IMG/VR virus record: IMGVR_UViG_3300020577_010124
Location: 1 to 64,000 of that record
DNA: 64,000 nt
From: a virus
Lineage: Duplodnaviria > Caudoviricetes
Direction: 5' to 3' (one strand)
Made by a program: the position numbers and the translations under genes. Below, piece by piece: positions 4,473 through 35,953 of this stretch. The notes below the pieces were generated by a model. That model was not told the DNA's origin, did no database searches, and saw nothing but the letters and a program-made list of their open reading frames with translations. Every line of letters begins with the position of its first letter. Position 1 is the first letter of the stretch.

Positions 4473-4546
4473 TGCGGAGTAGAGAAGTGGTCATCTCGCT
4501 AGCCTCATAAGCTGGAAATCGTGTGTTCGAATCACACCTCTCGCTA
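4473..4546 (+). tRNA. tRNA with CAT anticodon (Met, initiator-like features)
   Basis: Cloverleaf: D stem GAGA/TCTC, anticodon stem CTAGC/GCTGG with loop CTCATAA, T arm GTGTG-TTCGAAT-CACAC. Acceptor stem has one extra base; no encoded CCA. Confidence 0.9.
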
Positions 4547-4557
4547 CTAATACCCCT

Positions 4558-4609
4558 CCAAGGAGCGATCCTTGGCTCGACGCTCGCAGCAATGCGGGCG
4601 TTTATTTTT
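4558..4609 (+). terminator. Tandem GNRA hairpins / terminator after tRNA
   Basis: ccaagga-GCGA-tccttgg, then cgctcgca-GCAA-tgcgggcg-tttattttt. Confidence 0.7.
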
Positions 4610-4624
4610 GTCGATATTCAATTC

Positions 4625-6025
4625 ATGAAGTTTATCAACAAAACGAAGAACACAGTACAACTTGACGATATCAACCTTTCAATATCATATAACGATGGAT
4701 TGCCTCAAGAAATAGACACGCAATCAGTAAAGAAGAGTTTTGCTTTTCAAAACATGATATCTTTAGGCGGTTTCGAGGTTATTGAAGCCTCTGACGACCG
4801 ACTTGAAAAAAACTTATTCAAAACTAGTAAGAAGTACGAAAAGCCAGAAAAAGTTGAAATTAAAAGATTTGATAGTAGTGCGAACATAGAAACGATTGTT
4901 AGGGGTCATTTTTATGAATCTAGCGGCTATGCTAAGGTCAATCGTAATCTTGTTCTAAATCTTGCAAGACAGGGTATAGGAGTAGAAATAGATCCTATTT
5001 CAATGCGACACAACGATTTGAATGAAGTTGAAGCTCGCATGTTGTCTATGTTCAGAAAACCTATGGGAAAAGACGCTATACTTATTGATAGCGTTATTCC
5101 AACTCATTGCCAAGCAAATAGCCAGCCATACAAGATACTCTATACAACAGCAGAATCGGTTGAAGTTCCTAGACAGTTTATAGACTCAGCTAATCAATAC
5201 GACGAGCTATGGGTAACAAGTAGCTTTTCCAAGCAAGCATATGAAAGAAGCGGTTATGTAGGCAAAATATATTTAATGCCACCCATTATAAATAAATTCT
5301 TGTACAAGGAGCAAGTTGCGCCTTATGAGTTCCGTCCAAAGCTCTCTGGATTTGTCTTTACAAGCGTCATGACATGGGGATACAGAAAAGGCTCAGATGC
5401 CCTAATTAAAGCCTTTTCCAGAGCATTTTCAGACTCTGACGACGTAAGCCTTGTTCTGCTGGTTGCGGAGAGATCCAAAGCCAAGAGAGAGGCTATCAAA
5501 AAAGAAATTAATTACCTAACAAATTATAAATTATCTACACACAAAATTTTATTGTGCCATAAAAACGTTCCTGAATATCAGATGCCGTCCTTCTACAAGG
5601 CTTCCAATGTATTCGTTCTTCCTTCAAGGGGAGAGGGTTTTGGTATCCCGTTCTGCGAAGCTTCTCTTTGCGGTCTTCCAGTTATATCAACTCGGTATGG
5701 CGGGCAGATGGATTTTTTGAATGACGAAAACTCAACCTTGGTTGATATTGACACGATAGAGCGACCTAAAGACGGAGAGACAGGAATTCATTATTGGGAC
5801 AATCAGCCATTTCCTAGTTTGAAATCCGATAAGTTCATAGATAACCTGGCTGAATCCATGATTTTTGCGCGGAAAAACTACGAACTTATAAAGAGCAAAA
5901 ACGTTTTGCTTCAAAATGCTATAACTAGTCGCTTTAGCGGAGAGGTTGTAGGGAAGACGGCTAAGAGCATACTGGACATAGCTTGGAAAGGAATAAAAAA
6001 TGATAGTGTTTCTAAATCCAACTGA
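4625..6025 (+). CDS. GT-B glycosyltransferase (GT4-like) with extra N-terminal domain
   Basis: SGYAKVNR, DELWVTS, RKGSD, FVLPSRGEGFGIPFCEASLCGLPVIST motifs. Start moved to ATG 4625 because the ORF-track start overlaps the tRNA. Confidence 0.85.
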   Translation: MKFINKTKNTVQLDDINLSISYNDGLPQEIDTQSVKKSFAFQNMISLGGFEVIEASDDRLEKNLFKTSKKYEKPEKVEIKRFDSSANIETIVRGHFYESSGYAKVNRNLVLNLARQGIGVEIDPISMRHNDLNEVEARMLSMFRKPMGKDAILIDSVIPTHCQANSQPYKILYTTAESVEVPRQFIDSANQYDELWVTSSFSKQAYERSGYVGKIYLMPPIINKFLYKEQVAPYEFRPKLSGFVFTSVMTWGYRKGSDALIKAFSRAFSDSDDVSLVLLVAERSKAKREAIKKEINYLTNYKLSTHKILLCHKNVPEYQMPSFYKASNVFVLPSRGEGFGIPFCEASLCGLPVISTRYGGQMDFLNDENSTLVDIDTIERPKDGETGIHYWDNQPFPSLKSDKFIDNLAESMIFARKNYELIKSKNVLLQNAITSRFSGEVVGKTAKSILDIAWKGIKNDSVSKSN

Positions 6026-6608: not shown

Positions 6609-7418
6609 ATGAAGATTGCAATACTGAATTTTGAACAACCTTGGCACGTACTTGCTTCTACAAGCCTTATTAGAGGCTTGAAGCATGCTTATCCGTCAGC
6701 CTCGATTTCATTCTTTGTAAGTCAAGAAAGTTTTCCGATTATTCAATTCAACAAGAGCGTTGAAGCCATAAGCGGTTATATATCCCCAAATATTGAAAAG
6801 TTTGATTTAGCCATCAATATGAGTCCCAGTCTTGAGGCTTGTAATTTTATGACAGAGATCCCCTCTGTTGATAAAAAGGGCTTTACTGAAAAACTAGGTT
6901 CTGTAACATCGCTTAATGCTGATGCTGATGAATATTTTTCTATCATGCATAATGGTAACAAAAGCGAGAGGCATGCGCTACAGGTTATTTTTAGACTTTG
7001 TGGCATGACATGGAAGGGCGAAGGGTATGACCTTGCATACTTTCCTAAGAATAAAACAAATAGAAAGAAGACGGGCATCGCCATATCTCACGATCCTCTT
7101 AGAACGTTTGTAAAAAACAACCTAAAGCTAGAAATGACAGATATTTGGCATGTTCCTATGAAGAAGAATCTTTTCAAGAGGATGGACGAGATAAATCGTT
7201 GCATGTATATACTGACGGATGATTTATTTACTCTTCATGCCTCTATCGCATTGAGGAAGAACGTTGAGTTCTTAGATGTTATAGGATTGAACACAAGGCT
7301 TGAGTTTTTTGGAAGAGGAAATTACTATAGGATATCAGATGGAGACTGGCGAGTTCAAATGGAAAAAGACGGAGTTGAAGAAAACCTACGATCGACCGAA
7401 GAAGCGTGTGACGTATGA
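6609..7418 (+). CDS. GT9 (heptosyltransferase-like) glycosyltransferase, divergent
   Basis: MKIAILNFEQPWHVLASTSLIRGLKHAYPSASISFFV and TDDLFTLHASIALRK resemble WaaC/WaaF N- and C-terminal motifs; the canonical GD is replaced by WH. Confidence 0.65.
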   Translation: MKIAILNFEQPWHVLASTSLIRGLKHAYPSASISFFVSQESFPIIQFNKSVEAISGYISPNIEKFDLAINMSPSLEACNFMTEIPSVDKKGFTEKLGSVTSLNADADEYFSIMHNGNKSERHALQVIFRLCGMTWKGEGYDLAYFPKNKTNRKKTGIAISHDPLRTFVKNNLKLEMTDIWHVPMKKNLFKRMDEINRCMYILTDDLFTLHASIALRKNVEFLDVIGLNTRLEFFGRGNYYRISDGDWRVQMEKDGVEENLRSTEEACDV

Positions 7419-8163
7419 GCCTTCAATGATGGGATTTCAGCCAATCTACGGAGATGGGAAATACGTAAGAGTTGCAATATTAGATAGTGGTTGTCCTATT
7501 CATAATGATATTAGTACAGATCCTCATAAGTGCGCAAATTTTACAACAAGCGGAAGTCTTTTTGATGTTTACGGACATTCAACTGCTATTGCAGGATTGA
7601 TAGCTTCCAAAAATCATAGTTTGCAAGGATTTGCCCCACTAACAGATTTATACTTTGGTAAGTGCTTGTTGGACTCAGATGGCAATGGAGAGTTCAACTC
7701 TGTTATACAATCAATCTTTTGGGCAATTGTTCGAGAAGTTGACATAATCGTTATGGCGTTTGGAACGACTAAAGAGAATCCAAACCTTCATGACGCTATA
7801 AAAAAAGCCAATCGGTGCGGTATAGCGATTTTTGCAGCAGCAGGCAACTATGCTACAAGAACAAGAGATGCTGATTTTCCTGCCCGATATGACGAGGTTT
7901 TTTCGGTAGGATATGCTAATAATATAACGAGTAATGAAGTTGTTCGAGTTGACGGTAAAGCTAGAGGTATCGTTCTTCCTCTACAAGAGTTTGAAACAAC
8001 ATTTGTCGATTCTAAATTTGCAACCATGAGCGGTAGTAGTATGCATACAGCAGCAGTTGCAGGAGTCGCAGTATTGGCATTTCAAAAATTAAGAAAGAAT
8101 GGAAGTAATATAAAGAACCCTCAACTATTGTATGACGAGATTGGTCGTCTTTCTCAAAAATAA
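7339..8163 (+). CDS. Subtilisin-like S8 serine protease
   Basis: VAILDSG (Asp), YGHSTAIAG (His), AAAGN (oxyanion Asn), SGSSMH (Ser). Likely start ATG 7339. Confidence 0.9.
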   Translation: METGEFKWKKTELKKTYDRPKKRVTYEPSMMGFQPIYGDGKYVRVAILDSGCPIHNDISTDPHKCANFTTSGSLFDVYGHSTAIAGLIASKNHSLQGFAPLTDLYFGKCLLDSDGNGEFNSVIQSIFWAIVREVDIIVMAFGTTKENPNLHDAIKKANRCGIAIFAAAGNYATRTRDADFPARYDEVFSVGYANNITSNEVVRVDGKARGIVLPLQEFETTFVDSKFATMSGSSMHTAAVAGVAVLAFQKLRKNGSNIKNPQLLYDEIGRLSQK

Positions 8164-8175: not shown

Positions 8176-11100
8176 ATGCCTCATGTTCCTCGTAACAAAT
8201 GCTGTTTCCCTAATGCTAACGAGATCATTTACGATCCGTCAGTTTTGGGCGATTGGAGCAATGTTGATCCAGGAACAGTTGAGCATGCTCTTGATATACT
8301 TGCTGATAGACTTACAGAAGTTGAGTTGCATGGTGGACCCGTTGATGCTTCAGATGTAGCTTATGAGCCAAACTCTCTCGCTTGCTGGGAAGGAAGTAGT
8401 GATCCAGGCAATGTTGATGATGCCCTAGATCAACTTGTTCTTAGAGTTTGCGATCTTGAATCCTTAGCTATAAATCAACTATCTGATGTAAATATAACTA
8501 ACGTTCAAAATCAAGATACGCTTATTTATGATACAGCAACTCATAAATGGGTAAACGTGCCTAGCGCTGTTGGTTCGAGCGGCTATTCTGGTTACGCTGG
8601 CAATTCAGGATATTCAGGTTACTCGTCAACAAGTGGCTTTAGTGGCTATTCTTCTAATTCAGGATACTCAGGCTATTCAGGATCTGGGGTTTCAGGATTT
8701 AGTGGTTATTCGGCAGTTGGTACAAGCGGTTTTTCTGGATACTCTGCAACATCAGGATTTAGCGGTTATAGTAGTCACAGTGGTTTTTCTGGATACTCTG
8801 CAACATCTGGTTTCTCGGGTTACTCTTCTACTTCAGGTTTTAGTGGATATAGTTCACAATCTGGATTTAGTGGCTACATTGGTACTTCAGGCTTCTCTGG
8901 TTATATTGGTCAAAGTGGATTCTCTGGTTATGTAGGAGTATCGGGCTTCTCTGGTTACTCTTCTACTTCTGGCTTTTCTGGATATTCTTCAACGTCTGGT
9001 TTTAGTGGATACTCAGGAAAATCTGGTTTCTCAGGCTATAGTTCTGCGTCAGGATTCTCGGGCTACATCGGACAAAGTGGATATTCAGGTTTCAATGGTC
9101 AATCAGGATATTCTGGATATAGCGGTTTTAGAGGAACACAGTGGTATACAGGCCCTGATTTTGGATCATTTGATCAGAACACAGGAACAGCAGGTGATTT
9201 CTTTTATGATTCCACTACTGGAATTATCTGGCAAAAGATAGATAATGTTCCAACATGGGTTCAACTTGCTAACACTTCAGGCTTCTCTGGTTATAGTTCT
9301 GCTTCAGGGTTTTCAGGGTATTCTGGAAAGTCAGGATTCTCAGGGTATTCAAGTCAAAGTGGTTTCTCTGGTTACATAGGTTCGAGTGGATTCTCTGGTT
9401 ACTCTTCAACATCTGGCTTTTCAGGTTATTCAAGCACTTCTGGCTTTAGTGGATATAGTTCACATTCTGGCTTCTCGGGATACTTAGGCCAAAGTGGTTT
9501 TAGTGGTTACAGTTCGCAATCAGGTTTCTCAGGTTACAGTTCTACTTCAGGATTCTCTGGTTATAGCGCAACAAGTGGTTTTTCTGGATACTCAAGTACA
9601 TCGGGATTCAGTGGATACTCTTCAACGTCTGGCTTTAGCGGATACAGCGGTCGTTCAGGAATAAATGGAGCGACAGGACTATCTGGATTTTCTGGCTACC
9701 AAGGTATTTTTGGTGGTGATAGTTTTGTTTATGAGTATCTTGAAGGTGGAGTATCAGGATCTGGCCCATTCCCAGGCGTTGTAAATTGGGAAACAAGCCC
9801 AGGAAATACAACGCCCTCTGTAAGTCTAGCGCTTTATATAGGCATTAATACTTATGACTATAATGGTGCTGATGTTACTAATTGGATAAATAGCTTAGAT
9901 GATTCAACAAATAGCATTCGTGGATCAATTAGAATATTTGCTATTGATAATTCTGCCAAGTTTGCAGATTTTCAAATAACAGGTAATGTAACTGTTGACG
10001 GAGGAAATACGTGGGGATTGTTTATCCCCGTTGTTCCTGTTGTTTCTAATCCAAGCGATACTCCATTTGTTAATGGAGATATTGTAGTTGTATCGTTTAC
10101 AAGAGCAGGAGATGTTGGATCAACAGGAGCAACGGGGCTGAGTGGTTTCTCTGGATATTCCTCAGTTTCAGGTTTTTCTGGTTATTCAGGTAGATCAGGA
10201 TTCAGCGGTTATTCTTCAACATCAGGTTTCAGTGGCTATTCAAGCGCTTCAGGATTCAGCGGTTATAGTTCAACATCAGGCTTTAGTGGTTATGTTGGCT
10301 TGAGTGGTTTTTCTGGTTACATTGGTACATCAGGATTCTCAGGGTATATTGGATTAAGCGGATTTAGTGGTTACATTGGTACATCAGGATTTTCAGGGTA
10401 TATTGGCTTGAGTGGCTTCAGCGGATATTCAAGCGCCTCAGGGTTCTCTGGTTATAGTTCTGCTTCAGGTTTCTCAGGATATTCAAGCGCATCTGGCTTT
10501 AGTGGATATTCTTCTACGAGCGGTTTCTCTGGTTATTCAAGCGCATCTGGCTTTAGTGGTTACAGTTCAACATCTGGATTTAGCGGATACTCAAGTGCCT
10601 CTGGTTTCTCTGGCTATCTTGGACAGTCAGGTTTTAGTGGCTTCGTTGGTATTAGTGGATTTTCTGGTTATAGTTCAACTTCAGGCTTTTCTGGATATAT
10701 TGGAACGTCAGGATTCTCAGGCTATATAGGGTTGAGTGGTTTCTCTGGTTATTCTTCAACTTCTGGTTTCAGTGGATATTCTGGTAAATCAGGATTCTCA
10801 GGGTATGTTGGTATTTCTGGTTACAGTGGCTATTCAGGAATGTTTGGGGGAGATAGTCAGCCGTATTTCTTTAGCACTACAACTGCCGACACCGATCCAG
10901 GTAACGGGTTTATAAGATTCAATAACTCAACTTATTCTTTAGCGAGCGTTCTTGTTATTGATCCAATTAATGCTGACGGAGTTGATATAAGCACATGGAT
11001 TAGCAGTCTTTGTACTTCTACCAATCCTATAGCTGGAAATCTAAGAATAGTACATCGTAATAATTCTTCTGTTTTTGTTGACTATTTATTAACATATGCT

Positions 11101-14100
11101 GGAATAGATTCTGGGGTTGGATTTTATGATGTACAAATAACATATGCAACTGGCAATGGAACATTTAGTAATAATGATCCAGTCATCATATCGTTTTCAA
11201 GATCTGGAAATTTGGGAGATTCAGGATTCTCTGGTAATAGCGGATTCTCTGGATATGTTGGTCAATCAGGATTTAGCGGCTATTCAGGTAAGAGCGGCTT
11301 CTCTGGTTATGTTGGTCAATCAGGATTCTCTGGATATAGTTCTGCTTCAGGATTTAGTGGTTACTCAAGTGCATCTGGTTTTTCGGGATATATAGGAACA
11401 AGTGGATACTCAGGATTTGTTGGAGTATCAGGCTTCAGCGGTTACATAGGTTTAAGCGGATTCTCTGGGTACATCGGAAGTTCAGGTTTCTCTGGTTACG
11501 TTGGATTAAGTGGATTTAGCGGCTATGTAGGATTGAGCGGATTGAGCGGATTTAGTGGCTACAGTTCAACATCAGGTTTCTCAGGATACTCTTCAACATC
11601 AGGATTTAGTGGTTATTCAGGAACATCTGGATTCTCTGGATATATTGGTCAAAGTGGATATTCAGGTTTTGTTGGACAATCAGGCTTTTCTGGTTATATA
11701 GGCTTGAGTGGTTTTTCAGGTTTTGTTGGACTTAGTGGTTTCTCAGGCTATTTGGGGTTAAGCGGTTTCTCAGGTTACTCTTCAACTTCAGGTTTTAGCG
11801 GTTATTCTTCCGCTTCAGGTTTCTCTGGATACTCTGGTCAATCAGGCTTTTCTGGTTATATTGGAACTAGTGGTTTCTCAGGATACTCGGGAGTTTCAGG
11901 TTTTAGCGGATATAGCGGCAGATCTGGATATTCTGGTTATTCAGGCATGTTTGGCGCAGATAGTATGCCTTATCTGTTTAATACAGCAACAGATAATAGC
12001 GATCCAACCACAGGACATTTGCATTTTGATGGCACTGATTATTCTACAGCAACAGTTTTGTATATTTATGGTACAAATAGAGATGGAATTACTATTTGGA
12101 ATTGGCTTACTGCATGGGGAGCTTCTACTAATACTCCTAAGAGCTATGTGCGAATTGTTAAGCAAGGAGACTCTTCTGTATTTGTTGATTTTGCAGTAAC
12201 TGACGTATTGCAACCAAATGGATATTTCATTGTAGCAATTGACTATGTAACAGGAATAACAACAGGATTTAACGCCGAAGATCCTCTTATTGTTACATGG
12301 ACTAGGGTTGGAGATGTTGGTTTTAGTGGTTTCTCTGGATATTCTGGTTTCAGCGGATACTCAGGTAAATCAGGTTTTAGCGGTTATAGTTCAGCTTCTG
12401 GTTTCTCTGGATATCTAGGACAGTCAGGTTTTTCAGGTTACTCTTCTACTTCAGGCTTTAGTGGTTACTCAAGCACATCAGGTTTCTCTGGCTATTCTTC
12501 AACATCAGGTTTCTCAGGATATTCAAGCACTTCAGGATTTAGTGGTTATAGTTCAACATCAGGGTTCAGCGGATATATAGGTTTGAGTGGGTTTTCTGGC
12601 TATGTTGGGCTGAGCGGGTTCAGTGGTTACATTGGGTTATCAGGCTTTAGCGGTTATAGCGGAAAATCTGGTTTCTCAGGTTACATTGGACTGAGCGGAT
12701 TCTCTGGATATAGCTCAACTTCTGGCTTTAGCGGTTACTCAGGTGCGAGTGGATTTTCAGGTTACTCAGGAATCTCTGGCTTTAGTGGCTATTCAGGAAC
12801 TTCAGGCTTCTCAGGTTACAGTGGTAAGTCAGGTTTCTCAGGATACAGCGGTACGAGCGGCTTCTCAGGATACTCTGGGGCTTCTGGTTTTAGTGGATAT
12901 AGCTCTACATCTGGTTTTAGCGGTTACTCATCTCTTTCAGGTTTCTCTGGCTATAGTTCTACATCTGGTTTCTCAGGCTACTCGTCAACATCTGGATTTA
13001 GTGGATACTCAAGTTTGAGTGGTTTTTCTGGTTACTCCTCAACGTCTGGATTCTCAGGATACTCAGGAACATCAGGTTACTCAGGATATAGTTCAACAAG
13101 CGGCTTTAGTGGATACTCTTCAGCGTCTGGTTTCTCAGGTTACTCAGGAATAAGTGGATTCTCTGGATATAGCGGTAAATCAGGCTTTAGTGGTTATGTA
13201 GGCTTGAGTGGATTTAGCGGTTACTCAGGTTTAAGTGCGTATAGCGGCTATAGTGGTACGAGTGGTTACTCAGGTTATTCAGGATTATTTGGAGGAAACT
13301 CTCAGCTATTCAAATTTAGTACCGCTCCTGCTTCGGGAGACCCTGGCGATGGATATTTTGAAATAAATGACGCGGTAGATGCTGCTAATACAATTTGTAT
13401 AAGCGCTATAGACGCTAATGGACAAAGCGCCTTTGGCTTCCTTCAACTAATGGACGCTTCAACTAATCCTAAGAAGGGATGGTTGAAATTCTATTCTCTT
13501 TCAAATCAGTCAAGATGGTGGCTTACAAGAATAAGCGCACCAACCATAAACGGAACAACATATTATCAACTTACCGTTGATCCTATAGATTGGCCTGGAG
13601 TTTTTACATCTTGGGATGATAATGAGCTTGTAGTTGCGACATTTGTTACAACTGGCGATTCAGGTTTTTCAGGATATAGCGGACGCTCAGGATTTAGCGG
13701 TTACTCTGGTACTGTTGGAGCCTCTGGATATAGTGGTTATATAGGACTGTCAGGCTTTAGTGGTTATATTGGAACAAGCGGATTCAGCGGTTATATAGGA
13801 CTGTCAGGTTTCAGCGGCTATTCAGGCAGAAGTGGTTTCTCTGGATATAGTTCGACTTCAGGATATTCAGGTTACTCAGGTTCAATAGGATTATCTGGTT
13901 TTTCTGGTTATAGCTCGCTGTCTGGGTTTAGCGGATATTCATCAAGATCAGGATTTAGTGGTTATTCTGGTCTTTTTGGAGGAAGCACGGTTGAGTTCTT
14001 TATTAACGTTACAGATCTGTCTAGCCCTGTCGCTGCTGGCTATGTATATACAAGTGGAGATGCAGATTTATCAGATGTAGCAAATCTTTGGGTATCGCCA

Positions 14101-15864
14101 ACAAGCGCTGCTGGTGCAGACGTAACTAATTGGCTATTATCATTCAACACAACTACGCTTTTTAATAGAGGCCAGTTAAGAGTAAGCAAAATAGGTGATT
14201 CTAATAGCTTTGCAATATATAACGTATCTCATGGTATAGATGATTTTGCAGGAGCTTCAGCATCATTTGTTTTGTATTTAGATTATTTATCTGGTAATAA
14301 TGTTTTATCATTTGTAAACGATGAAAAAGTAATACTTTCATTTAGCATGACTGGTTTCTCAGGTTTTTCTGGTTACTCCTCAACATCAGGTTTTTCAGGT
14401 TACAGTGGTAAATCGGGCTTTAGTGGCTATTCTAGTACAAGTGGTTTCTCAGGTTATTCAGGAAATAATGGACTTTCGGGCTTCAGCGGTTATTCTGGAA
14501 TAAGTGGCTTCTCTGGATATTCAGGTGTATCAGGTTTCTCGGGATACTCAGGAGCCAGTGGATTCTCAGGATATAGTGGTAAGTCAGGTTTCTCAGGATA
14601 CAGTGGAACGAGTGGTTTCTCAGGTTACTCTGGACTTTCTGGCTATTCAGGCTATTCCTCAACATCTGGTTTCTCTGGATACTCTTCAACCTCTGGTTTT
14701 AGTGGTTATAGCTCAACTTCAGGTTTCTCAGGATATTCAGGCCAATCAGGTTTCAGTGGTTACTCTTCGTTGTCTGGATTCTCAGGATATTCTGGTCTAA
14801 GTGGATTTAGTGGTTATTCGGGCTTAGTCGGACTTTCAGGTTTCTCAGGCTATTCAGGAGCATCAGGCTTTAGCGGATATTCAGGACAAAGTGGATTCAG
14901 TGGCTATATAGGGCTTTCAGGTTTTAGTGGCTACTCTTCTACTTCAGGCTTCTCGGGTTACAGTTCTACTTCAGGTTTTTCAGGCTATAGTGGTAAGTCT
15001 GGTTATAGCGGATTTATAGGATTAAGTGGGTTCTCGGGTTATAGCGGTATGTTTGGCGGCGATAGCCAGCCTTACTATTTCAATAGTTCGACAACAGATA
15101 ATCCTGGCGCAGGATATGCTTCATATGGAAACTCCGCTACGCCATCTCTTGTTACGCTGCTATGGTTGGATGCAGTTAATAGCGATACCGTAAATATTGT
15201 TAGTTGGATTGTTGCATTGCAAGAAAGCAGTAGTAGTCCAACAGGTATACTACGTCTTGTAAAACGCAATAATAGTAGTGTTTTTGCAGACTACAAGATA
15301 AGTTCTCAACTATATCAAGATCCAAGTGCAGGCGCTGCTATAGGAATAACCGTTAGCCACGTAGTCAGCAATGGAACATTTTCAAACAACGATCCAATTA
15401 TTGTTACTTTTGCTAGAACAGGACTTTCTGGTTATTCAGGTTATAGCGGAACAAGCGGTTTTAGTGGATACTCAGGAACATCAGGATTTTCAGGATATTC
15501 TGGTAAATCAGGTTTCTCAGGCTACAGTGGTGGTTCAGGCTTCTCAGGATACAGCGGAGCAGGACAAAGTGGATTCTCAGGTTATTCTGGACCTGTAGGA
15601 AGTTCAGGTTTCTCAGGTTATTCTGGAACAAGTGGATTCTCAGGCTATATAGGTTTGAGCGGTTTCTCTGGTTATAGCTCCGCTTCAGGTTTTAGTGGAT
15701 ATTCTTCAACATCTGGCTTCAGCGGTTACTCAGGAATTTCGGGCTTCTCAGGATACAGCGGTAAGTCTGGATTCAGTGGATATTCAGCAGTTTCAGGATT
15801 CTCAGGTTATTCAGGCTGGGGAAATCCTTCTGCCGCAGTCTTCGCTTATTCAACATTTACATGA
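8176..15864 (+). CDS. Giant SGFSGY-repeat collagen-like fibre protein with six inserted ~125-aa globular domains
   Basis: 2562 aa. Long tracts of 9-aa SGFSGYxxx units; N-terminal V..ALD.L repeats and an LSDV..LIYD..KW.N motif; knob domains near 9700, 10840, 11945, 13285, 13970 and 15050. Confidence 0.75.
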   Translation: MPHVPRNKCCFPNANEIIYDPSVLGDWSNVDPGTVEHALDILADRLTEVELHGGPVDASDVAYEPNSLACWEGSSDPGNVDDALDQLVLRVCDLESLAINQLSDVNITNVQNQDTLIYDTATHKWVNVPSAVGSSGYSGYAGNSGYSGYSSTSGFSGYSSNSGYSGYSGSGVSGFSGYSAVGTSGFSGYSATSGFSGYSSHSGFSGYSATSGFSGYSSTSGFSGYSSQSGFSGYIGTSGFSGYIGQSGFSGYVGVSGFSGYSSTSGFSGYSSTSGFSGYSGKSGFSGYSSASGFSGYIGQSGYSGFNGQSGYSGYSGFRGTQWYTGPDFGSFDQNTGTAGDFFYDSTTGIIWQKIDNVPTWVQLANTSGFSGYSSASGFSGYSGKSGFSGYSSQSGFSGYIGSSGFSGYSSTSGFSGYSSTSGFSGYSSHSGFSGYLGQSGFSGYSSQSGFSGYSSTSGFSGYSATSGFSGYSSTSGFSGYSSTSGFSGYSGRSGINGATGLSGFSGYQGIFGGDSFVYEYLEGGVSGSGPFPGVVNWETSPGNTTPSVSLALYIGINTYDYNGADVTNWINSLDDSTNSIRGSIRIFAIDNSAKFADFQITGNVTVDGGNTWGLFIPVVPVVSNPSDTPFVNGDIVVVSFTRAGDVGSTGATGLSGFSGYSSVSGFSGYSGRSGFSGYSSTSGFSGYSSASGFSGYSSTSGFSGYVGLSGFSGYIGTSGFSGYIGLSGFSGYIGTSGFSGYIGLSGFSGYSSASGFSGYSSASGFSGYSSASGFSGYSSTSGFSGYSSASGFSGYSSTSGFSGYSSASGFSGYLGQSGFSGFVGISGFSGYSSTSGFSGYIGTSGFSGYIGLSGFSGYSSTSGFSGYSGKSGFSGYVGISGYSGYSGMFGGDSQPYFFSTTTADTDPGNGFIRFNNSTYSLASVLVIDPINADGVDISTWISSLCTSTNPIAGNLRIVHRNNSSVFVDYLLTYAGIDSGVGFYDVQITYATGNGTFSNNDPVIISFSRSGNLGDSGFSGNSGFSGYVGQSGFSGYSGKSGFSGYVGQSGFSGYSSASGFSGYSSASGFSGYIGTSGYSGFVGVSGFSGYIGLSGFSGYIGSSGFSGYVGLSGFSGYVGLSGLSGFSGYSSTSGFSGYSSTSGFSGYSGTSGFSGYIGQSGYSGFVGQSGFSGYIGLSGFSGFVGLSGFSGYLGLSGFSGYSSTSGFSGYSSASGFSGYSGQSGFSGYIGTSGFSGYSGVSGFSGYSGRSGYSGYSGMFGADSMPYLFNTATDNSDPTTGHLHFDGTDYSTATVLYIYGTNRDGITIWNWLTAWGASTNTPKSYVRIVKQGDSSVFVDFAVTDVLQPNGYFIVAIDYVTGITTGFNAEDPLIVTWTRVGDVGFSGFSGYSGFSGYSGKSGFSGYSSASGFSGYLGQSGFSGYSSTSGFSGYSSTSGFSGYSSTSGFSGYSSTSGFSGYSSTSGFSGYIGLSGFSGYVGLSGFSGYIGLSGFSGYSGKSGFSGYIGLSGFSGYSSTSGFSGYSGASGFSGYSGISGFSGYSGTSGFSGYSGKSGFSGYSGTSGFSGYSGASGFSGYSSTSGFSGYSSLSGFSGYSSTSGFSGYSSTSGFSGYSSLSGFSGYSSTSGFSGYSGTSGYSGYSSTSGFSGYSSASGFSGYSGISGFSGYSGKSGFSGYVGLSGFSGYSGLSAYSGYSGTSGYSGYSGLFGGNSQLFKFSTAPASGDPGDGYFEINDAVDAANTICISAIDANGQSAFGFLQLMDASTNPKKGWLKFYSLSNQSRWWLTRISAPTINGTTYYQLTVDPIDWPGVFTSWDDNELVVATFVTTGDSGFSGYSGRSGFSGYSGTVGASGYSGYIGLSGFSGYIGTSGFSGYIGLSGFSGYSGRSGFSGYSSTSGYSGYSGSIGLSGFSGYSSLSGFSGYSSRSGFSGYSGLFGGSTVEFFINVTDLSSPVAAGYVYTSGDADLSDVANLWVSPTSAAGADVTNWLLSFNTTTLFNRGQLRVSKIGDSNSFAIYNVSHGIDDFAGASASFVLYLDYLSGNNVLSFVNDEKVILSFSMTGFSGFSGYSSTSGFSGYSGKSGFSGYSSTSGFSGYSGNNGLSGFSGYSGISGFSGYSGVSGFSGYSGASGFSGYSGKSGFSGYSGTSGFSGYSGLSGYSGYSSTSGFSGYSSTSGFSGYSSTSGFSGYSGQSGFSGYSSLSGFSGYSGLSGFSGYSGLVGLSGFSGYSGASGFSGYSGQSGFSGYIGLSGFSGYSSTSGFSGYSSTSGFSGYSGKSGYSGFIGLSGFSGYSGMFGGDSQPYYFNSSTTDNPGAGYASYGNSATPSLVTLLWLDAVNSDTVNIVSWIVALQESSSSPTGILRLVKRNNSSVFADYKISSQLYQDPSAGAAIGITVSHVVSNGTFSNNDPIIVTFARTGLSGYSGYSGTSGFSGYSGTSGFSGYSGKSGFSGYSGGSGFSGYSGAGQSGFSGYSGPVGSSGFSGYSGTSGFSGYIGLSGFSGYSSASGFSGYSSTSGFSGYSGISGFSGYSGKSGFSGYSAVSGFSGYSGWGNPSAAVFAYSTFT

Positions 15865-15907: not shown

Positions 15908-16315
15908 ATGCCAGCAAATACCAATCCAATATTTACACTAACACCACAGTTTACTCCTGTTGCTTTGTCTGCCGCTGACACAGGAATGGGAACTTCTGCT
16001 CCTACCAATAAAGCAACTCTAGTAACAGGAGGCGCTAACGGAACAAGAGTTGATGGAGCTTCTTTTATGGCAACAGCGCAAAGCTCAAATGCCATTATTC
16101 GAATTTTTTATGTTGTTTCGACAACTTATTATTTGATTGGAGAAGTTTCAGTAACAGCTACAACTCCAAGTAATACAGTGCAAACAGCCAGCGCTGTATG
16201 GCGACCTAATATAACCCCATTTGTTGTTGGTAACGGCCATACTCTTGTGTTTACTTTTTCAGTTAGAAACAGTGCTGAATCATGGATTGGACAGGCTTTT
16301 GCGGGTGACTACTAA
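15908..16315 (+). CDS. Small beta-rich virion protein, putative fibre-tip adaptor
   Basis: 135 aa, RBS GAGG, MPANTNPIF...GTRVD...GDY, follows the fibre gene. Confidence 0.5.
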   Translation: MPANTNPIFTLTPQFTPVALSAADTGMGTSAPTNKATLVTGGANGTRVDGASFMATAQSSNAIIRIFYVVSTTYYLIGEVSVTATTPSNTVQTASAVWRPNITPFVVGNGHTLVFTFSVRNSAESWIGQAFAGDY

Positions 16316-16327
16316 TCGAGGTGTTTT

Positions 16328-16732: not shown

Positions 16733-16734
16733 GA

Positions 16735-17058: not shown

Positions 17059-17070
17059 TAGGAATTTTAT

Positions 17071-18203: not shown

Positions 18204-20057
18204 ATGCCATCAGCAGTAAAAATAGTAAGAACTTTGAAAGAGCTTGTAGATGTAGCCGTCTCGTCTCCGAGCAGCGGACAAGCTCTTGTATATAATTCAA
18301 CAACCCAAAAATGGGAGAACGCTAACGTTTCAGGAACAGGAGACGGTAGTAGTGGTTTCTCAGGATATAGCAGTCGTTCGGGTTTTAGTGGTTATTCAAG
18401 TACATCAGGTTTTTCTGGTTATAGTTCTACTTCTGGCTTTAGTGGATATAGCTCAACAAGTGGGTTGTCAGGTTTTAGCGGGTACTCCGCCGCAAGCGGA
18501 TTTTCTGGTTATAGTGGCAGATCAGGAGCAGGCGGCGCTCCAGGTCCGCAAGGGTTTCCAGGCGGAGATAGTTTATATATTTTCTACAATGATAATCACG
18601 CAGGAGTTGATCCAGGTGAAGGATATTTTACTTCTGATGATGGAGATTTTACATCAACAAGTGCTCTTAATTTTAGTTATACAGATGGACTCGGAACAAA
18701 TGTAATTGATTGGGTTAGAGCGCTTGATGATAGTACAAATAGTATAAAAGGTGTTCTTCGATTTTATACTATTGGCGATTATACGCAATATGTTGATTTT
18801 TATATTACTGGGGTTCTGACGGATCATACAACCTATGCGACTCTTCAAGTAGGTTTCTCAAGCGGTACATTAGCATCTGCGCCTCCCGCTGAAACTGAAA
18901 TGATTGTTAGTTTTGTAAGAATAGGAGATTCTGGTCGTAGTGGCTATTCTGGTTATAGTGGTAAATCAGGTTTCTCTGGATATTCAGGTGCAGGAGGATC
19001 AGGTTTCTCTGGTTATAGCGGAGCAGGAACTTCTGGTTTTTCGGGTTATTCTGGTAATGGTAGCTCAGGTTTTAGTGGTTATTCAGGCGCTGGTGGTTCT
19101 GGATTTTCAGGTTATAGCGGAGCAGGTGGATCTGGATTTAGTGGTTACTCTGGAACAGGTATATCAGGTTTTTCTGGTTATTCAGGAGGGGGAATTTCGG
19201 GCTTTAGTGGTTATTCTTCTATAAGCTCAAGCGGTTTTTCGGGATATTCTGGCACTGGTGGATCAGGATTCTCGGGATATTCTGGCGCTGGTGGTTCTGG
19301 CTTTTCAGGTTATAGTGGAGCAGGCGGATCTGGATTTAGTGGTTACTCTGGAAATGGAATAAGCGGTTTTTCAGGTTATTCAAGCGTTGGCGTATCTGGA
19401 TTTTCAGGTTATTCTGGCCAAAGCGGTTTTTCAGGCTATAGTGGTAGGTCTGGCTTTAGTGGTTATAGTTCTATTTCAGGTTTTTCAGGTTATTCAGCAG
19501 CGTCAGGTTTTAGTGGTTATAGCGGAAAGAGTGGATATTCAGGTTATTCTGGGCTTTCTGGTTTTAGTGGTATGTCGTCTTCTACAACTCCTGCTTATGG
19601 AGAAATACTTTATACAGGCGATGGAGTTAGCGGTTGGACTTATGATGGTTCGGGAGATTGGGACGTAATAGATGGTCTTGGAGCGGGATCGTCTTCTTCA
19701 ACAACTTTATCAACATCTTCGATTACTGCAAACTCTAGCGGAGCTTTTTTAGTAACTTGTAGTCTTTCTTTTAGAGCTACTTCAGAGGAAGATTCCTATA
19801 TATTTGCTATATTCAAGAATGGCTCTGTAACAAATATATCTACAAGAAATTGGACAGAATATAACAATGGAGCTACTTCTTATTTTTCTGTATCTCTAAC
19901 AGGTATTCTTGTTCTAGCTGCCGATGACTATATAGAGGTTCGAGCTAAAAATCTAACCGATACAGACAATATTAATCTTTGGAGAGCCAATTTTGCGCTT
20001 TCTGCGATTGGTTCTAGTTCTGATAGTTCTTTGTCAGCACTATGGTTTATGGGGTGA
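18204..20057 (+). CDS. SGFSGY-repeat fibre protein with C-terminal BclA-C/C1q-like domain
   Basis: Same N-terminal anchor motif, one knob domain, repeats; C-terminal AYGEI..SITANSSGAFLVTCSLSF..FAIFKNG..SLTGILVLAADDYIEV pattern. Confidence 0.7.
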   Translation: MPSAVKIVRTLKELVDVAVSSPSSGQALVYNSTTQKWENANVSGTGDGSSGFSGYSSRSGFSGYSSTSGFSGYSSTSGFSGYSSTSGLSGFSGYSAASGFSGYSGRSGAGGAPGPQGFPGGDSLYIFYNDNHAGVDPGEGYFTSDDGDFTSTSALNFSYTDGLGTNVIDWVRALDDSTNSIKGVLRFYTIGDYTQYVDFYITGVLTDHTTYATLQVGFSSGTLASAPPAETEMIVSFVRIGDSGRSGYSGYSGKSGFSGYSGAGGSGFSGYSGAGTSGFSGYSGNGSSGFSGYSGAGGSGFSGYSGAGGSGFSGYSGTGISGFSGYSGGGISGFSGYSSISSSGFSGYSGTGGSGFSGYSGAGGSGFSGYSGAGGSGFSGYSGNGISGFSGYSSVGVSGFSGYSGQSGFSGYSGRSGFSGYSSISGFSGYSAASGFSGYSGKSGYSGYSGLSGFSGMSSSTTPAYGEILYTGDGVSGWTYDGSGDWDVIDGLGAGSSSSTTLSTSSITANSSGAFLVTCSLSFRATSEEDSYIFAIFKNGSVTNISTRNWTEYNNGATSYFSVSLTGILVLAADDYIEVRAKNLTDTDNINLWRANFALSAIGSSSDSSLSALWFMG

Positions 20058-22254: not shown

Positions 22255-25200
22255 TTGAATACAGACCCACGAAAAATTAAATATTCGATTGTTATTCCTA
22301 CCTACAATCATCTTGAAGATTGTCTCAAGCCTTGCCTTGAAAGCATAATCAAGTATACTGACTTGTCAAATGTTGAAGTTATCATTGTGGCAAATGGCTG
22401 CAATGATCGTACTTCGCAATACGTAAATAGCTTAGGCGATCCGTTCAAACTTATTTGGATGGATAAGCCTTCAGGTTACATAAAACCAACGAACGAAGGT
22501 ATACGCCAATCAAAAGGCGAGTATATCGTATTGCTCAATAACGATATTGTGCTTTGTAATCAACAAAAAAACGTTTGGCTTCAAATGCTAGAGAAGCCAT
22601 TTGAAAATCCTAAAACTGGCATATCTGGACCATACAAAGATATTAGATTTGCTTGGGATGATAACAAAATAACGTTTCGTCAACACTATATGGTTTTTTA
22701 TTGCGCAATGGTGCGAAAGCAAACGTTCCAAGAGCTAGGTTTGCTGGATGAAGGATTTGGTCTTGGATATGAAGAGGATATTGATTTTTGTATACGCTTG
22801 GAAAACTCAGGTCTATCTTTGGTTCAAGTTCCAGAAGATATGCATTATGATCTAAATATTACAAAAGATTATTTGATTCATAATCCAAATATCAATACCA
22901 AATTCCCTATTTATCACAAAGATAAGATAACTTTTCAGGAAATTACACATGACAGCACTAGAGAGCCAAATCTATTGCTAAGGAAACATCAAATGATCCC
23001 TAAATATTCGATTATCATTCCAACATATAACCATCTCGAAGATTGTTTGAAGCCTTGTCTTGAAAGCATAATCAAGCATACGGATCTTACCAACGTAGAA
23101 GTTATCATTGTGGCAAATGGATGCACAGATGGTACAAGAGACTATGTTCATAGTTTAGGGCATCCTTTTAAGTTGTTGTGGATAGACGAACCTTCGGGAT
23201 ATACTAAATCAACTAACGAAGGCATCAAAGTCGCTATGGGCGAGTATGTCATACTTGTTAATAACGATATGGTGTTCTTGTCTCAAGAAAAGAGTCGTTG
23301 GATTTCGATGCTAGAGGCTCCATTTTTGTCAGATAAATCAGTTGGTATAACAGGCGCAGCAAAGAACTTTCATGAAGAAACTCAATTCAACTTTCTGTTG
23401 TTCTTTTGTGTTATGATTAAGTGGGAGACAATCAAGAAATTCGGATTGCTTGACGAGATATTTAATCCTGGATATGGAGAAGATATTGATTATTGTTGGA
23501 AGCTTCATAATGCAGGTTTGAAGGTTGTTCAAGTTCCAAATGATGCTTCATTCTCCAAGGTTCGAGACGCAGAAGATCATGTTATTTATTTTCCGATATG
23601 GCATAAATCAAGCCAGACAGTTCATAGCGTACCAGGATGGTCGGAAATAGTTGCGAGAAACGAAAGAATACTTATGGATAGATACGGAAAATACCCTAAT
23701 AGAAGAATACTCCCTGAATGGGAAAAAGCTCTCGATGCAGGGCAAAAAATAGAAGCTGAACTCAATGAAAGAACCAAACTAACTGTTGTTAGCAAAGAGT
23801 CTTTGGACGGTATTTTCCGTGATGAATCTGTTGTTGCCAATTCTGTCAAGAAAGATAGACCAATCATTTCTTCTTATAATGACATCTATTCTTATGTTTT
23901 AGATGTTGGTTCTAAGCATGCAGGCTTTTTTGGAGCTAAATATACAGGAGGATATTGTCTACAACAAAACCCAGAAGAGATAAGTCGTTTTCTTTTTGAT
24001 TTCAAAGATCTTGATATAAAGAACTATTTGGAGATTGGATGTGCAGACGGAGGTGTTACGAGACTTCTTTGCGACGTTCTGAAAATAGAGAATGTTTACA
24101 CTATTGACCTTGGATGGAAAGACGGCGACAATCCCAATTCTTATAGAGATGGAATAGACAATCTAAAGAATTCGGGCAAGATAAACATTTTTAGAGGCAA
24201 TAGTCACTCTAAAGAAGCAGAACAATTCCTAGAGGAATCAGGTAAGCAGTTTGATGTTATTTTTATTGACGCTGACCATACTTTTGAAGCTGTAATGAGA
24301 GATACCGCTCTTGCCGTAAAATATGCAAAGCCAAATACTATTTTTGTTTATCATGATCATGCATTTGTTGAGGGAGTTTATCGCTTCTTCCAACACCTAC
24401 TTAAGCCAAATGAGTTCAACTTGACGTTTATAAACGATTATGTACACTCAGATCCTCAAGTCCGAAAGGGACTGGCTGTTTTTCGTTTTGAAGGTAAGCC
24501 TCAAACTCAAAAGCCAAAGGTCTACGATTGCTTTACGTTCTATAATGAGTTTGATTTGCTTGAAATACGTTTGAACGAACTAGATAGCGTTGTTGATAAG
24601 TTTGTTCTTGTAGAAGCCAAGCATAGTTTTCAAGGCAAACCAAAGCCTCTCTATTTCAGAGACAACAAAGAGCGATTCAAAAAATTCTTACACAAGATAG
24701 AGCATGTTATTGTTGATGAGTTTCCTCCAACAGATAATCACTGGCACCGAGAACATTTTCAGCGAAACGCTATTGTTCGAGGATTGAATGGTTGTAAAGA
24801 CAATGACATTATCATTATCTCAGATGTTGACGAGATACCTAGAAGCAATGTTATTGAAAGATACAATCCTGCTCATGGTATTGTAAATCTTGCTCAAGAT
24901 GTTTTTTACTATTATTTCAATTGCAAATGTCATAATAATTGGGTTCAACCTAAGATATTGACATATGCTATTCTAAAAACAACAAGTCCAGAAGAAGTTC
25001 GACATCTTCATGGTAAGGCTCATCTTCCATTGATGGAAAACGCAGGATGGCATTTTTCTTACTTAGGTAATGTTGATTGGATTATCAATAAGATAGAGTC
25101 TTTTAGTCATACAGAATACAATACAGACGAGTTCAAAAACAAAGAGCATGTTCTTCGTTGTATCGCTAACGGTAAAGATTTGTTCAATCGCTTCGATCCT

Positions 25201-33795: not shown

Positions 33796-33796
33796 T

Positions 33797-35945: not shown

Positions 35946-35953
35946 GGAAATGC

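What the first reader, a model, noticed from the sequence alone, without database searches (positions are those of the whole stretch)
8570..15820. Non-canonical collagen-like 9-mer repeat (G-F-S/G-Y-S/[GS]-x-S), nearly proline-free, with systematic Gly-to-Ser substitution
Seen: the triplet register is kept over long tracts, but every third triplet often has Ser where Gly is required (SGF-SGY-SST, SSA, SSL) alternating with IGL, SGK, VGQ. Phe and Tyr alternate strictly. The embedded globular domains are the kind I recall from ordinary GXY collagen phage fibres, so the repeat seems to replace collagen. Known: Gly-to-Ser changes and aromatic X residues destabilise triple helices, and SYSGYS-like motifs in FUS form kinked beta (LARKS) fibrils. 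Inference: this could be a new fibrous fold (loosened triple helix stabilised by glycosylation, polyglycine-II bundle, or aromatic-laddered triple beta structure).
Basis: partly seen in the sequence, partly recalled or inferred. Interest (0 to 1): 0.8.

Follow-up and report, generated by a model that had tools for sequence, protein, structure and literature searches.

The report
Serine-substituted collagen-like giant phage fibre
A huge phage encodes a 2,562-residue beaded fibre whose collagen-type three-residue repeat keeps perfect register but regularly puts serine where collagen needs glycine, and has no proline or charge pairs, so it either stretches the known rules for collagen triple helices or is a fold not yet described.

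Summary
Window 8176-15864 (+) is one 2,562-aa ORF with eight repeat tracts (1,572 residues), six ~130-aa knob domains and one ~50-aa insert. There are 172 nine-residue units G[FY]S-G[FY]x-[GSA]xS. The third 'Gly' is G in 104, S in 63 and A in 5. The tracts hold one Pro and no Asp or Glu.

The repeat is selected at protein level: all 172 DNA units differ. Between conserved knob junctions the frame never slips: 388 triplets start only with G, S or A. That frame matches relatives that have the same knob but strict Gly-X-Y tracts.

Ser/Ala replacement recurs in relatives. One sister phage uses Ala with a 12-residue period, and 31 of 159 related proteins are substituted at 5% or more of triplets. 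Two sister fibres in the window and 22 relatives favour 11-residue units that break the collagen register.

My best reading (about 0.6) is a homotrimeric, periodically loosened collagen-like triple helix clamped by trimeric knobs. It is probably O-glycosylated, since glycosyltransferase genes adjoin. A different fibrous fold remains possible (about 0.2).

I found no paper describing the motif. Other first-stage notes of this scan report similar in-register Gly replacements in other phages.

I class it as a new variant of a known kind.

The parts
8176..15864 (+). Fibre gene, 2,562 aa (P0001): N-terminal domain, eight repeat tracts, six knobs, one small insert, and a short C-terminal tail with no globular end domain
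   Evidence: ORF and translation. Pfam Collagen E=7.5e-157 in 27 stretches. PHROG tail-fibre families.
8176..8577 (+). N-terminal non-repeat domain (aa 1-134). Its last ~40 residues resemble the N-termini of the two sister fibres, so it is a presumed virion attachment part.
   Evidence: Translations. Only weak PHROG hits of unknown function.
8578..9129 (+). Repeat tract 1 (aa 135-318). It contains two 11-residue units near its start.
9130..9276 (+). Small ~50-aa non-repeat insert (aa 319-367)
   Evidence: No family hit.
9277..9699 (+). Repeat tract 2 (aa 368-508), in frame up to the first knob junction
9700..10140 (+). Knob 1
   Evidence: Alignment A1. Profile search found 6,530 relatives.
10141..10833 (+). 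Repeat tract 3. Knob exit to next knob entry is 243 aa, 0 mod 3.
10834..11220 (+). Knob 2, a beta-rich domain modelled at pLDDT 72-95
   Evidence: No clear PDB fold match. Many viral 'Collagen triple helix repeat' proteins share the fold.
11221..11940 (+). Repeat tract 4 (246 aa between junction glycines, 0 mod 3)
11941..12324 (+). Knob 3
12325..13278 (+). Repeat tract 5, the longest (324 aa, 109 triplets, 0 mod 3)
13279..13659 (+). Knob 4
13660..13965 (+). Repeat tract 6 (105 aa, 0 mod 3)
13966..14358 (+). Knob 5
14359..15042 (+). Repeat tract 7 (231 aa, 0 mod 3)
15043..15426 (+). Knob 6
15427..15810 (+). Repeat tract 8, C-terminal. It contains one 11-residue and one 12-residue unit.
18204..20057 (+). 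Sister fibre P0002 (617 aa): same core motif, one knob, a C-terminal globular domain. 13 of 24 core spacings are 11 residues.
   Evidence: Pfam Collagen only 27.8 bits. The C-terminal domain hits phrog_38624 and phrog_737, minor tail protein.
37537..39381 (+). Sister fibre P0003 (614 aa): 51 cores, 10 of 49 spacings are 11 residues, hydrophobic C-terminus
22255..36988 (+). Sugar island between the fibre genes: a 2,990-aa polyprotein with 5 GT2 and 3 GT17 stretches plus methyltransferases; RmlB-, RmlD- and RmlA-like genes; a methyltransferase; a GT2. Candidate source of fibre glycosylation (context, not shown to act on the fibre).
   Evidence: Pfam.
4523..6025 (+). GT4-type glycosyltransferase upstream of the fibre gene (context)
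7300..8163 (+). Subtilase (peptidase S8) gene ending 13 nt before the fibre gene (context; role unknown)

Best explanation
P0001 is a virion fibre of a huge phage. Three identical chains form a beads-on-a-string rod in which trimeric knob domains alternate with collagen-type triple-helical segments, giving about 450 nm of helix if the rise per residue is collagen-like.

The helical segments are a derived form of the proline-free Gly-X-Ser collagen tracts common in this fibre family. Two canonical triplets with an aromatic X residue (Gly-Phe-Ser, Gly-Tyr-Ser) alternate with a third, 'soft' triplet whose axial Gly is often Ser, or Ala in a sister phage. Because the chains are staggered by only one residue, each soft triplet gives a ring of three small non-Gly residues at the helix axis every ~2.6 nm. 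That is a periodic local loosening (a 'G5G' interruption), made tolerable by small neighbours.

Folding would be nucleated at the strict-Gly triplets next to each knob, and the helix is held at both ends by the knobs. With no Pro/Hyp and no Lys-Asp/Glu pairs, stability most likely comes from the knob clamps, from aromatic collars, and from O-glycosylation of the Ser at every Y position by the phage's own glycosyltransferases.

Shown: the sequence pattern, the register, the homology, the selection and the gene context. Inferred: trimer state, triple-helical conformation, glycosylation, and the role as an adhesion or reach fibre.
For: 1. Pfam Collagen E=7.5e-157, 27 stretches each over the cut-off.
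2. The knob is the domain that sits between strict Gly-X-Y tracts in relatives: P0004, P0029, L011-L048 and the 735-kb phage LR756501, which has 621 triplets and no substitution. BFVD fold matches are mostly named 'Collagen triple helix repeat'.
3. At both conserved junctions (G-x-F-G-G-D/V entering the knob, R-x-G-D-x-G leaving it) the P0001 frame equals the Gly frame of strict relatives. The five knob-to-knob tracts are all 0 mod 3, and their 388 triplets start only with G, S or A.
4. Spacings are multiples of three in 160 of 163 short-range (<=18-residue) spacings other than the 3-residue overlaps in P0001 and in 74% of cases family-wide. The 1 mod 3 class is only 4%.
5. Replacing residues across relatives are A (135) and S (134), with few others. 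From memory of collagen model-peptide work, these are the least destabilising Gly replacements.
6. Compensation: Ser or Ala at position 7 occurs only after Ser (68 versus 0; p=1.7e-12) and prefers a small following residue (odds ratio 11.6; p=1.6e-12).
7. Substituted units are depleted in the last three units before a knob (4/24 versus 64/148; p=0.014). This fits C-to-N folding from a nucleus (PMC11923368).
8. Single Gly-to-Ser changes in a bacterial collagen still give a trypsin-resistant triple helix (PMC5009287), and short interruptions can be accommodated (PMC10765305).
9. Strong purifying selection on the peptide pattern with scrambled DNA argues for a regular structure.
10. Glycosyltransferase genes adjoin the fibre genes here and in 2 of 2 relatives checked. 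BclA is a precedent for a glycosylated collagen-like fibre (PMC8968730).
Against: No structural test was possible.

The density of non-Gly triplets is beyond any characterised triple helix: 13-15% overall, with runs of up to 7 consecutive units leaving only two Gly triplets between substitutions, and every substitution present in all three chains.

The tracts contain no Pro, Asp or Glu. They therefore lack the Pro/Hyp and KGE/KGD clamps that PMC11923368 reports as enriched around interruptions, most of all in viruses.

The strict difference between Phe (triplet 1) and Tyr (triplet 2) is not expected for two equivalent X positions.

The same core motif occurs with an 11-residue period in P0002 (13 of 24), in P0003 (10 of 49) and as the dominant period in 22 of 94 relatives, including arrays of 26 or more units. 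That would mean a G-x-G break every 11 residues, which is hard to reconcile with a continuous triple helix.

Glycosylation is inferred from gene neighbourhood only.
Confidence: 0.6

Rival explanations
1. The tracts adopt a regular fibrous fold that is not a collagen triple helix. The invariant six-residue core S-G-[FY]-S-G-[FY] is the structural element, for example a short PPII or polyglycine-II-type segment, or one side of a trimeric beta-helix. The variable 3-, 5- or 6-residue linker forms a turn or corner. Phe and Tyr then occupy non-equivalent (buried versus exposed) positions.
For: The core is far more conserved than the linker. Linker lengths of 3, 5, 6 and 9 all occur. The 11-residue period is dominant in 22 of 94 relatives and forms long pure arrays that the precomputed Pfam scan does not call Collagen. 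P0002 scores only 27.8 bits against Collagen. The Phe/Tyr distinction is strict in 152 of 172 units. All known triple-helix stabilisers are absent. A phage adhesin with a polyglycine-II sandwich is a precedent from memory (Salmonella phage S16 gp38).
Against: In P0001 the frame is held over 388 triplets between junctions that are in phase with strict-GXY relatives. A turn-linked fold would not demand this. Spacings of 1 mod 3 are nearly absent. Runs of three or more G-aromatic-S triplets (spacing 3, 283 cases) do not fit a core-plus-turn unit. AF2 monomer models gave no confident repeat fold, so a single-chain solenoid or serpentine is not supported. A three-residue period argues against beta strands.
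Confidence: 0.2
2. The tracts are flexible, intrinsically disordered, heavily O-glycosylated spacers (mucin-like bottle-brushes) that merely separate the knob domains.
For: The tracts are 34% Ser and 29% Gly. A large glycosylation island is adjacent. AF2 gives low confidence for them.
Against: Disordered linkers do not keep four invariant positions in 172 units and a never-slipping three-residue frame while the DNA diverges to 59% identity. Aromatic residues make up 22% of the tracts, which is unlike mucins. Low monomer pLDDT is expected for any obligate trimer.
Confidence: 0.08
3. The [GS]-Y/F-[GS] motifs act as in FUS low-complexity domains, forming reversible kinked-beta (LARKS) or amyloid-like contacts between fibres.
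For: No tool result supports it.
Against: Homology and a shared frame with strict collagen tracts. Three-residue rather than two-residue periodicity. The tracts sit between folded knobs in a virion fibre.
Confidence: 0.03

Closest known systems
Phage and bacterial collagen-like proteins (Pfam PF01391; for example Streptococcus Scl2 and collagen-like phage tail fibres)
   Same: Gly-X-Y frame and the HMM match. No hydroxyproline. Globular trimerisation-type domains flank the helical tracts. Annotated as tail fibre in PHROGs.
   Different: Characterised members keep Gly at every third residue and rely on Pro, charge pairs or Thr. Here 13-15% of triplets lack Gly in a periodic pattern, with no Pro, Asp or Glu.
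Knob-plus-collagen fibres of other phages: the 735-kb phage LR756501 giant fibre, IMG/VR relatives L011-L048, and the Pelagibacter phage HTVC010P tail protein
   Same: Same knob domain, same junction motifs, proline-free tracts, often Ser or Thr at Y, and aromatic X residues in some.
   Different: Their tracts have strict Gly: 621 triplets without one substitution in LR756501. HTVC010P has two knobs and no tract.
Sister protein in L009 (IMGVR_UViG_3300033066_000693, 258 kb)
   Same: Same core motif, same knob, giant size, and periodic in-register replacement of Gly.
   Different: It uses Ala, not Ser (G 55, A 49, S 1), in a 12-residue unit whose substituted triplet carries an aromatic residue.
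Non-fibrillar animal collagens and collectins with natural interruptions (type IV collagen; the G-Q-G kink of mannan-binding lectin, PMC9898670)
   Same: G5G-type (Gly replaced) and G1G-type (one residue missing) breaks within a triple helix. They are thought to give flexibility (PMC10765305, PMC11923368).
   Different: Those breaks are sporadic (about 23 in type IV, per PMC11923368) and flanked by salt-bridge clamps. Here they are periodic, 69 in one chain, homotrimeric and without any charge pairs.
BclA of the Bacillus exosporium nap (glycosylated collagen-like filament)
   Same: Collagen-like filament with Ser/Thr-type Y residues, and sugar genes (including rhamnose-type ones) available for O-glycosylation (PMC8968730).
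   Different: BclA has strict Gly-X-Thr triplets with Pro and one C-terminal TNF-like head. The knob here has no clear structural match to known heads (best Z 5.3). Glycosylation here is not shown.
Polyglycine-II / PPII bundles (snow-flea antifreeze protein; phage S16 gp38 adhesin; both from memory)
   Same: Gly at every third residue, with small residues at packing positions.
   Different: Those are compact monomeric domains of short antiparallel helices. Here tracts of up to 109 triplets run between trimer-type knobs in the collagen frame.

Membership tests
Collagen triple helix repeat (Pfam PF01391) | Profile match above the curated gathering score | tested here: met
   E=7.5e-157, 509.7 bits, 27 stretches. 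Individual stretches score 27-38 bits against a cut-off of 27.2. P0002 is borderline at 27.8 bits.
Collagen triple helix repeat (Pfam PF01391) | Three-residue register maintained over long tracts | tested here: met
   Five knob-to-knob tracts are all 0 mod 3, 388 triplets in total. 160 of 163 such spacings in P0001 are multiples of 3.
Collagen triple helix repeat (Pfam PF01391) | Gly at every third residue without interruption | tested here: not met
   69 in-register non-Gly triplets (S 64, A 5), which is 14.7%. Position 7 of the unit is G 104, S 63, A 5.
Collagen triple helix repeat (Pfam PF01391) | A known stabiliser present (Pro/Hyp, Lys-Gly-Asp/Glu pairs, or Thr at Y) | tested here: not met
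   One Pro, no Asp and no Glu in 1,572 tract residues. The Y position is Ser.
Collagen triple helix repeat (Pfam PF01391) | Three chains wound in a triple helix | not testable with these tools
Monomer models are uninformative for the tracts.
Knob-plus-collagen phage fibre family (knob not in Pfam) | Knob domain homologous to the family profile | tested here: met
   The profile of 7 window knobs finds 6,530 representatives at E<=1e-3 and 3,670 at E<=1e-10. The fold is shared with viral 'Collagen triple helix repeat' proteins.
Knob-plus-collagen phage fibre family (knob not in Pfam) | Conserved tract-to-knob and knob-to-tract junctions in phase with the Gly frame | tested here: met
   Nearly invariant G columns on both sides. 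The junction alignment is shown.
BclA-type glycosylated collagen-like filaments | O-glycosylation of Ser/Thr in the collagen-like region | not testable with these tools
   Only gene context is available: GT4, a GT2/GT17 polyprotein, Rml-like genes and GT2 in the window, and GT2, GT9 and GT8 next to relatives.
BclA-type glycosylated collagen-like filaments | TNF/C1q-like trimeric head domain | tested here: inconclusive
   The knob model (pLDDT 72-95) has no match at E<=1e-3 in the PDB by Foldseek. The best VIA Z is 5.3, to generic beta domains of phage tails.
Polyglycine-II / PPII bundle domains | Compact bundle of short PPII helices joined by turns | tested here: inconclusive
   Monomer AF2 models give pLDDT below 35 for the tracts and no bundle. 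The 11-residue units would fit a core-plus-turn unit, but the strict frame in P0001 would not be required by one.

The most novel reading that the evidence does not exclude
Repeats built on the S-G-[FY]-S-G-[FY] core, as 9-, 11- and 12-residue units in a set of mostly huge-phage proteins, form a previously undescribed trimeric fibrous fold. It would be either a triple helix with its own helical parameters that tolerates a small non-Gly residue or a one-residue deletion at fixed intervals, or a PPII- or beta-based fibre derived from collagen. Aromatic collars and glycans would replace proline and salt bridges as stabilisers.
Probability: 0.22. Interest if true: 0.85.

Novelty: new variant of a known kind. 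Interest (0 to 1): 0.6.

Why it matters
Collagen's defining rule is Gly at every third residue. Single Gly-to-Ser changes cause brittle-bone disease, and recent work argues that interruptions must be clamped by Lys-Asp/Glu salt bridges, most of all in viral collagens (PMC11923368).

Here a natural fibre under strong selection breaks that rule periodically. It has about 70 in-register replacements in one chain, no proline and no acidic residue, yet it keeps the collagen frame perfectly. Relatives do the same with Ala, or with a one-residue deletion every 11 residues.

If these tracts are triple-helical, they define a new way to stabilise and tune the flexibility of collagen-like rods, through aromatic collars, knob clamps and probably glycans. 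That would be useful for designed collagen materials. If they are not, they are a new fibrous fold.

Either way a short recombinant knob-tract-knob construct makes the question directly testable. For phage biology, it points to half-micrometre, probably sugar-coated appendages on huge phages.

Tried and rejected
The central structural question is therefore untested.
- AF2 monomer, single sequence (aa 806-1096): pLDDT 32.7, useless.
- AF2 monomer with the 22-row alignment A2: the knob is confident but the tracts have pLDDT below 35. This says nothing about an obligate trimer.
- Knob fold against the PDB: Foldseek found nothing at E<=1e-3. VIA wide gave a best Z of 5.3 with generic matches. The sequence profile found nothing in the PDB. 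A C1q/TNF-type head is therefore not shown and not excluded.
- The search for related loci with the knob alignment failed because no stretch was conserved enough. A single segment worked.
- Megablast of the upstream 8 kb against deposited phages: no match.
- Literature string search for the core motif and variants: no paper. A search for collagen-like fibres in jumbo or huge phages returned nothing on this repeat.
- Cluster look-up of six NCBI-sourced relatives: no names.
- Thiagarajan et al. 2008 on common collagen interruptions is not held. Statements on the relative frequency of G1G and G4G breaks, and on the Ala/Ser ranking of Gly replacements, rest on memory.
- Recent slippage or assembly artefact is rejected: all 172 DNA units are distinct.
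- Single-chain beta-solenoid is rejected as unlikely: the period is three residues and there is no confident monomer fold.
- I considered whether the 9-residue period plus the one-residue stagger would give straight aromatic stripes on a 10/3 helix. By my own reasoning (not computed with a tool) it gives rings of like residues instead, so I make no such claim.
Full report
**1. What is there**

The finding lies inside a single ORF, window 8176-15864 (+), of 2,562 aa (P0001). The window is the first 64 kb of a 170,562-bp IMG/VR viral record that CheckV rates at 34% complete, so it is a fragment of a very large phage. The protein is 25% Ser, 22% Gly, 8.7% Tyr and 8.7% Phe.

Its parts are:
- an N-terminal domain (aa 1-134);
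- eight repeat tracts totalling 1,572 residues;
- one ~50-aa insert;
- six ~130-aa globular 'knob' domains that are 24-33% identical to each other.

It ends a few residues after the last tract.

**2.

172 units fit G[FY]S-G[FY]x-xxx. Positions 1, 3 and 4 are invariant. Position 2 is F in 156 units and position 5 is Y in 164, with F-then-Y order in 152 of 172. Position 9 is S in 156. Position 7, the third register Gly, is G in 104, S in 63 and A in 5. There is one Pro and no Asp or Glu in the tracts.

A stricter scan counted a non-Gly residue only if it had two in-frame Gly triplets on each side. It gives 69 replaced triplets, 14.7%.

Core spacings are 9 (152 cases), 12 (6), 18 (2), 3 (3) and 11 (3). 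The three 11-residue units lie in the first and last tracts only.

From each knob-exit Gly to the next knob-entry junction the distances are 243, 246, 324, 105 and 231 residues, all 0 mod 3. The 388 triplets in these stretches begin with G (342), S (45) or A (1) and nothing else.

**3. It is selected, not a slippage product**

All 172 27-nt units differ, with mean identity 59%. The 34 identical peptide units (Gly-Phe-Ser, Gly-Tyr-Ser, Ser-Thr-Ser) are encoded by 34 different DNAs, with 44% identity at third codon positions. Ser at position 7 is TCN in 49 cases and AGY in 14, so it is not a one-step change from a Gly codon. Tandem Repeats Finder sees only short, weak arrays.

**4. Internal rules of the substitution**

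- Ser or Ala at position 7 occurs only when position 6 is Ser (68 versus 0; when position 6 is Ile, Val or Leu, position 7 is always Gly; Fisher p=1.7e-12).
- It prefers a small residue at position 8 (odds ratio 11.6, p=1.6e-12; still p=1.3e-8 when position 6 is Ser).
- Substituted units are clustered (64 runs against 83 +/- 5.6 in shuffles, p=4e-4).
- They are depleted in the last three units before a knob (4/24 against 64/148, p=0.014).

**5. Relatives**

A profile of the window's knobs finds 6,530 cluster representatives at E<=1e-3. The domain is not in Pfam and has no solved relative by sequence.

Among the best 150, about half carry ordinary (Gly-X-Y)n tracts between knobs, some with Pro and many without. 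Examples:
- P0004 and P0029 have plain tracts.
- P0072 and P0120 have a G-Y-T-G-S-x type.
- L011 has Phe and Trp at X.
- P0074 and L010 have G-[FY]-S triplets with strict Gly.

The 735-kb phage LR756501 has a giant fibre with this knob and 621 Gly-Thr/Ser-Ser triplets without one substitution. The cultured Pelagibacter phage HTVC010P has two knobs in its annotated tail protein and no tract. BFVD matches to the knob model are mostly named 'Collagen triple helix repeat' and include cyanophage and giant-virus proteins.

So proline-free tracts, Ser/Thr at Y and aromatic X residues are family traits. Strict Gly is the family norm.

**6. The substitution is a group trait, not a one-off**

L009, from a 258-kb viral contig, has a sister protein with 112 cores in which a 12-residue unit carries Ala at the register position (G 55, A 49, S 1).

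A search with P0003 gave 472 proteins at E<=1e-10. Of the 159 retrieved proteins with at least 30 triplets, 31 have 5% or more substituted triplets. The replacing residues are A (135), S (134), L (15), N (14) and few others. Many of these proteins sit on contigs of 150-346 kb.

**7. The complication: 11-residue units**

In P0002, 13 of 24 core spacings are 11 residues. In P0003 it is 10 of 49.

Over 94 proteins with at least 8 cores, spacings are 0 mod 3 in 1,364 cases, 2 mod 3 in 394 and 1 mod 3 in 74. The 11-residue period is dominant in 22 proteins. Its linker has the Gly pattern x-G-x-G-x in 253 of 301 cases. In collagen terms this is a G1G interruption, a triplet shortened by one residue (nomenclature as in PMC11923368).

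Some relatives, such as P0165, are arrays of 26 or more such units and are not called Collagen by the precomputed Pfam scan. P0002 reaches only 27.8 bits.

**8. Structure prediction**

A single-sequence monomer model was useless. A model from a 22-row alignment (A2) gave a confident beta-rich knob (pLDDT 72-95) and unstructured tracts, which is expected for an obligate oligomer. The knob has no clear match in the PDB.

**9. Context**

- A GT4 gene (4523-6025) and a subtilase gene (7300-8163) precede the fibre gene.
- Between the three fibre genes lies a sugar island: a 2,990-aa polyprotein with five GT2 and three GT17 stretches plus methyltransferases, RmlB-, RmlD- and RmlA-like genes, a methyltransferase and a GT2.
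- Two relatives checked also have glycosyltransferase genes beside the fibre gene: GT2 in L058, and GT9 and GT8/GT9 in L059.

This sample is small and shows neighbourhood only.

**10. Reading**

The frame identity with strict relatives at both junctions, the never-slipping three-residue frame, the restriction to Ser and Ala, the compensating small neighbours and the strict triplets next to the knobs all point to a collagen-type triple helix with periodic soft rings. It would be nucleated and clamped by trimeric knobs. At 0.286 nm per residue (established collagen geometry) the tracts would add up to about 450 nm.

Published work shows that single Gly-to-Ser changes in a bacterial collagen leave a trypsin-resistant helix (PMC5009287) and that interruptions of 1-4 residues can be accommodated (PMC10765305).

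Against a plain triple helix stand four points:
- the unprecedented density of replacements in all three chains;
- the lack of Pro and of the salt-bridge clamps reported as enriched around interruptions, especially in viruses (PMC11923368);
- the unexplained Phe/Tyr distinction;
- the 11-residue arrays.

I therefore give 0.6 to a loosened, probably glycan-assisted triple helix, 0.2 to a different regular fold built on the six-residue core, and less than 0.1 each to a disordered spacer and to LARKS-type contacts.

**11. Novelty**

No paper in the library holds the motif. Reviews of prokaryotic and viral collagen-like proteins mention interruptions only in general terms (PMC8968730).

Other first-stage notes of this scan describe the same motif in P0003 and in-register Gly replacements in fibres of other phages. 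I treated those as leads. My own counts show independently that the trait is recurrent.

I class it as a new variant of a known kind, with a real chance of being more.

Noticed in passing
window 18204-20057 and 37537-39381: Two more fibres (P0002, P0003) carry the same six-residue core but often in 11-residue units. P0002 ends in a ~150-aa globular domain that hits phrog_38624 and phrog_737 (minor tail protein). P0003 ends in a Gly run followed by a short hydrophobic tail, and has a ~70-aa Trp/Tyr-rich insert between its tracts.
   Followed up: partly
P0165 and 21 other retrieved proteins: Long pure arrays of an 11-residue unit (the six-residue core plus S-G-x-G-x, 26 or more copies in P0165) occur in proteins that the precomputed Pfam scan does not call Collagen. 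P0165 also has a discoidin (F5/8 type C) domain. The fold of this 11-residue repeat is unexplained.
   Followed up: partly
L009:1-6693 and 8698-11949 (IMGVR_UViG_3300033066_000693, 258 kb): Sister fibres in which Ala, not Ser, takes the register Gly in a 12-residue unit. The two fibre genes are arranged as in the window, a large one followed ~2 kb later by a smaller one with the same N-terminal motif.
   Followed up: partly
window 7300-8163: A subtilase (peptidase S8) gene ends 13 nt before the fibre gene, and its longest ORF overlaps the preceding ORF (6609-7418) by ~120 nt. Whether it processes the fibre is unknown.
   Followed up: no
window 22255-36988: Sugar island between the fibre genes: a 2,990-aa multi-glycosyltransferase and methyltransferase polyprotein, Rml-like nucleotide-sugar genes, and GT2. 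Confirmed by Pfam, but its target was not tested.
   Followed up: partly
L056:2098-3444 (Pelagibacter phage HTVC010P gp22): The annotated tail protein of this cultured podophage contains two tandem copies of the knob domain and ends with a few Gly-X-Y triplets. It is a tractable system for solving the knob structure.
   Followed up: partly
L057:4873-12291 (LR756501, 735-kb phage): A fibre of more than 2,473 aa with this knob and 621 strict Gly-Thr/Ser-Ser triplets. It would serve as a natural strict-Gly control for the substituted fibres.
   Followed up: partly
L059 (NCBI GCA_034680565.1 contig, 160 kb): A fibre with the same core motif lies among giant Kelch-, RCC1- and WD40-repeat proteins of 1,261-2,286 aa and three glycosyltransferase genes.
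   Followed up: no
window 15908-18165: Three small ORFs (135, 134 and 107 aa) and a 364-aa ORF between P0001 and P0002. The three that were searched (135, 134 and 364 aa) have no Pfam match and the 364-aa one no PHROG match; the 107-aa ORF was not searched.
   Followed up: no
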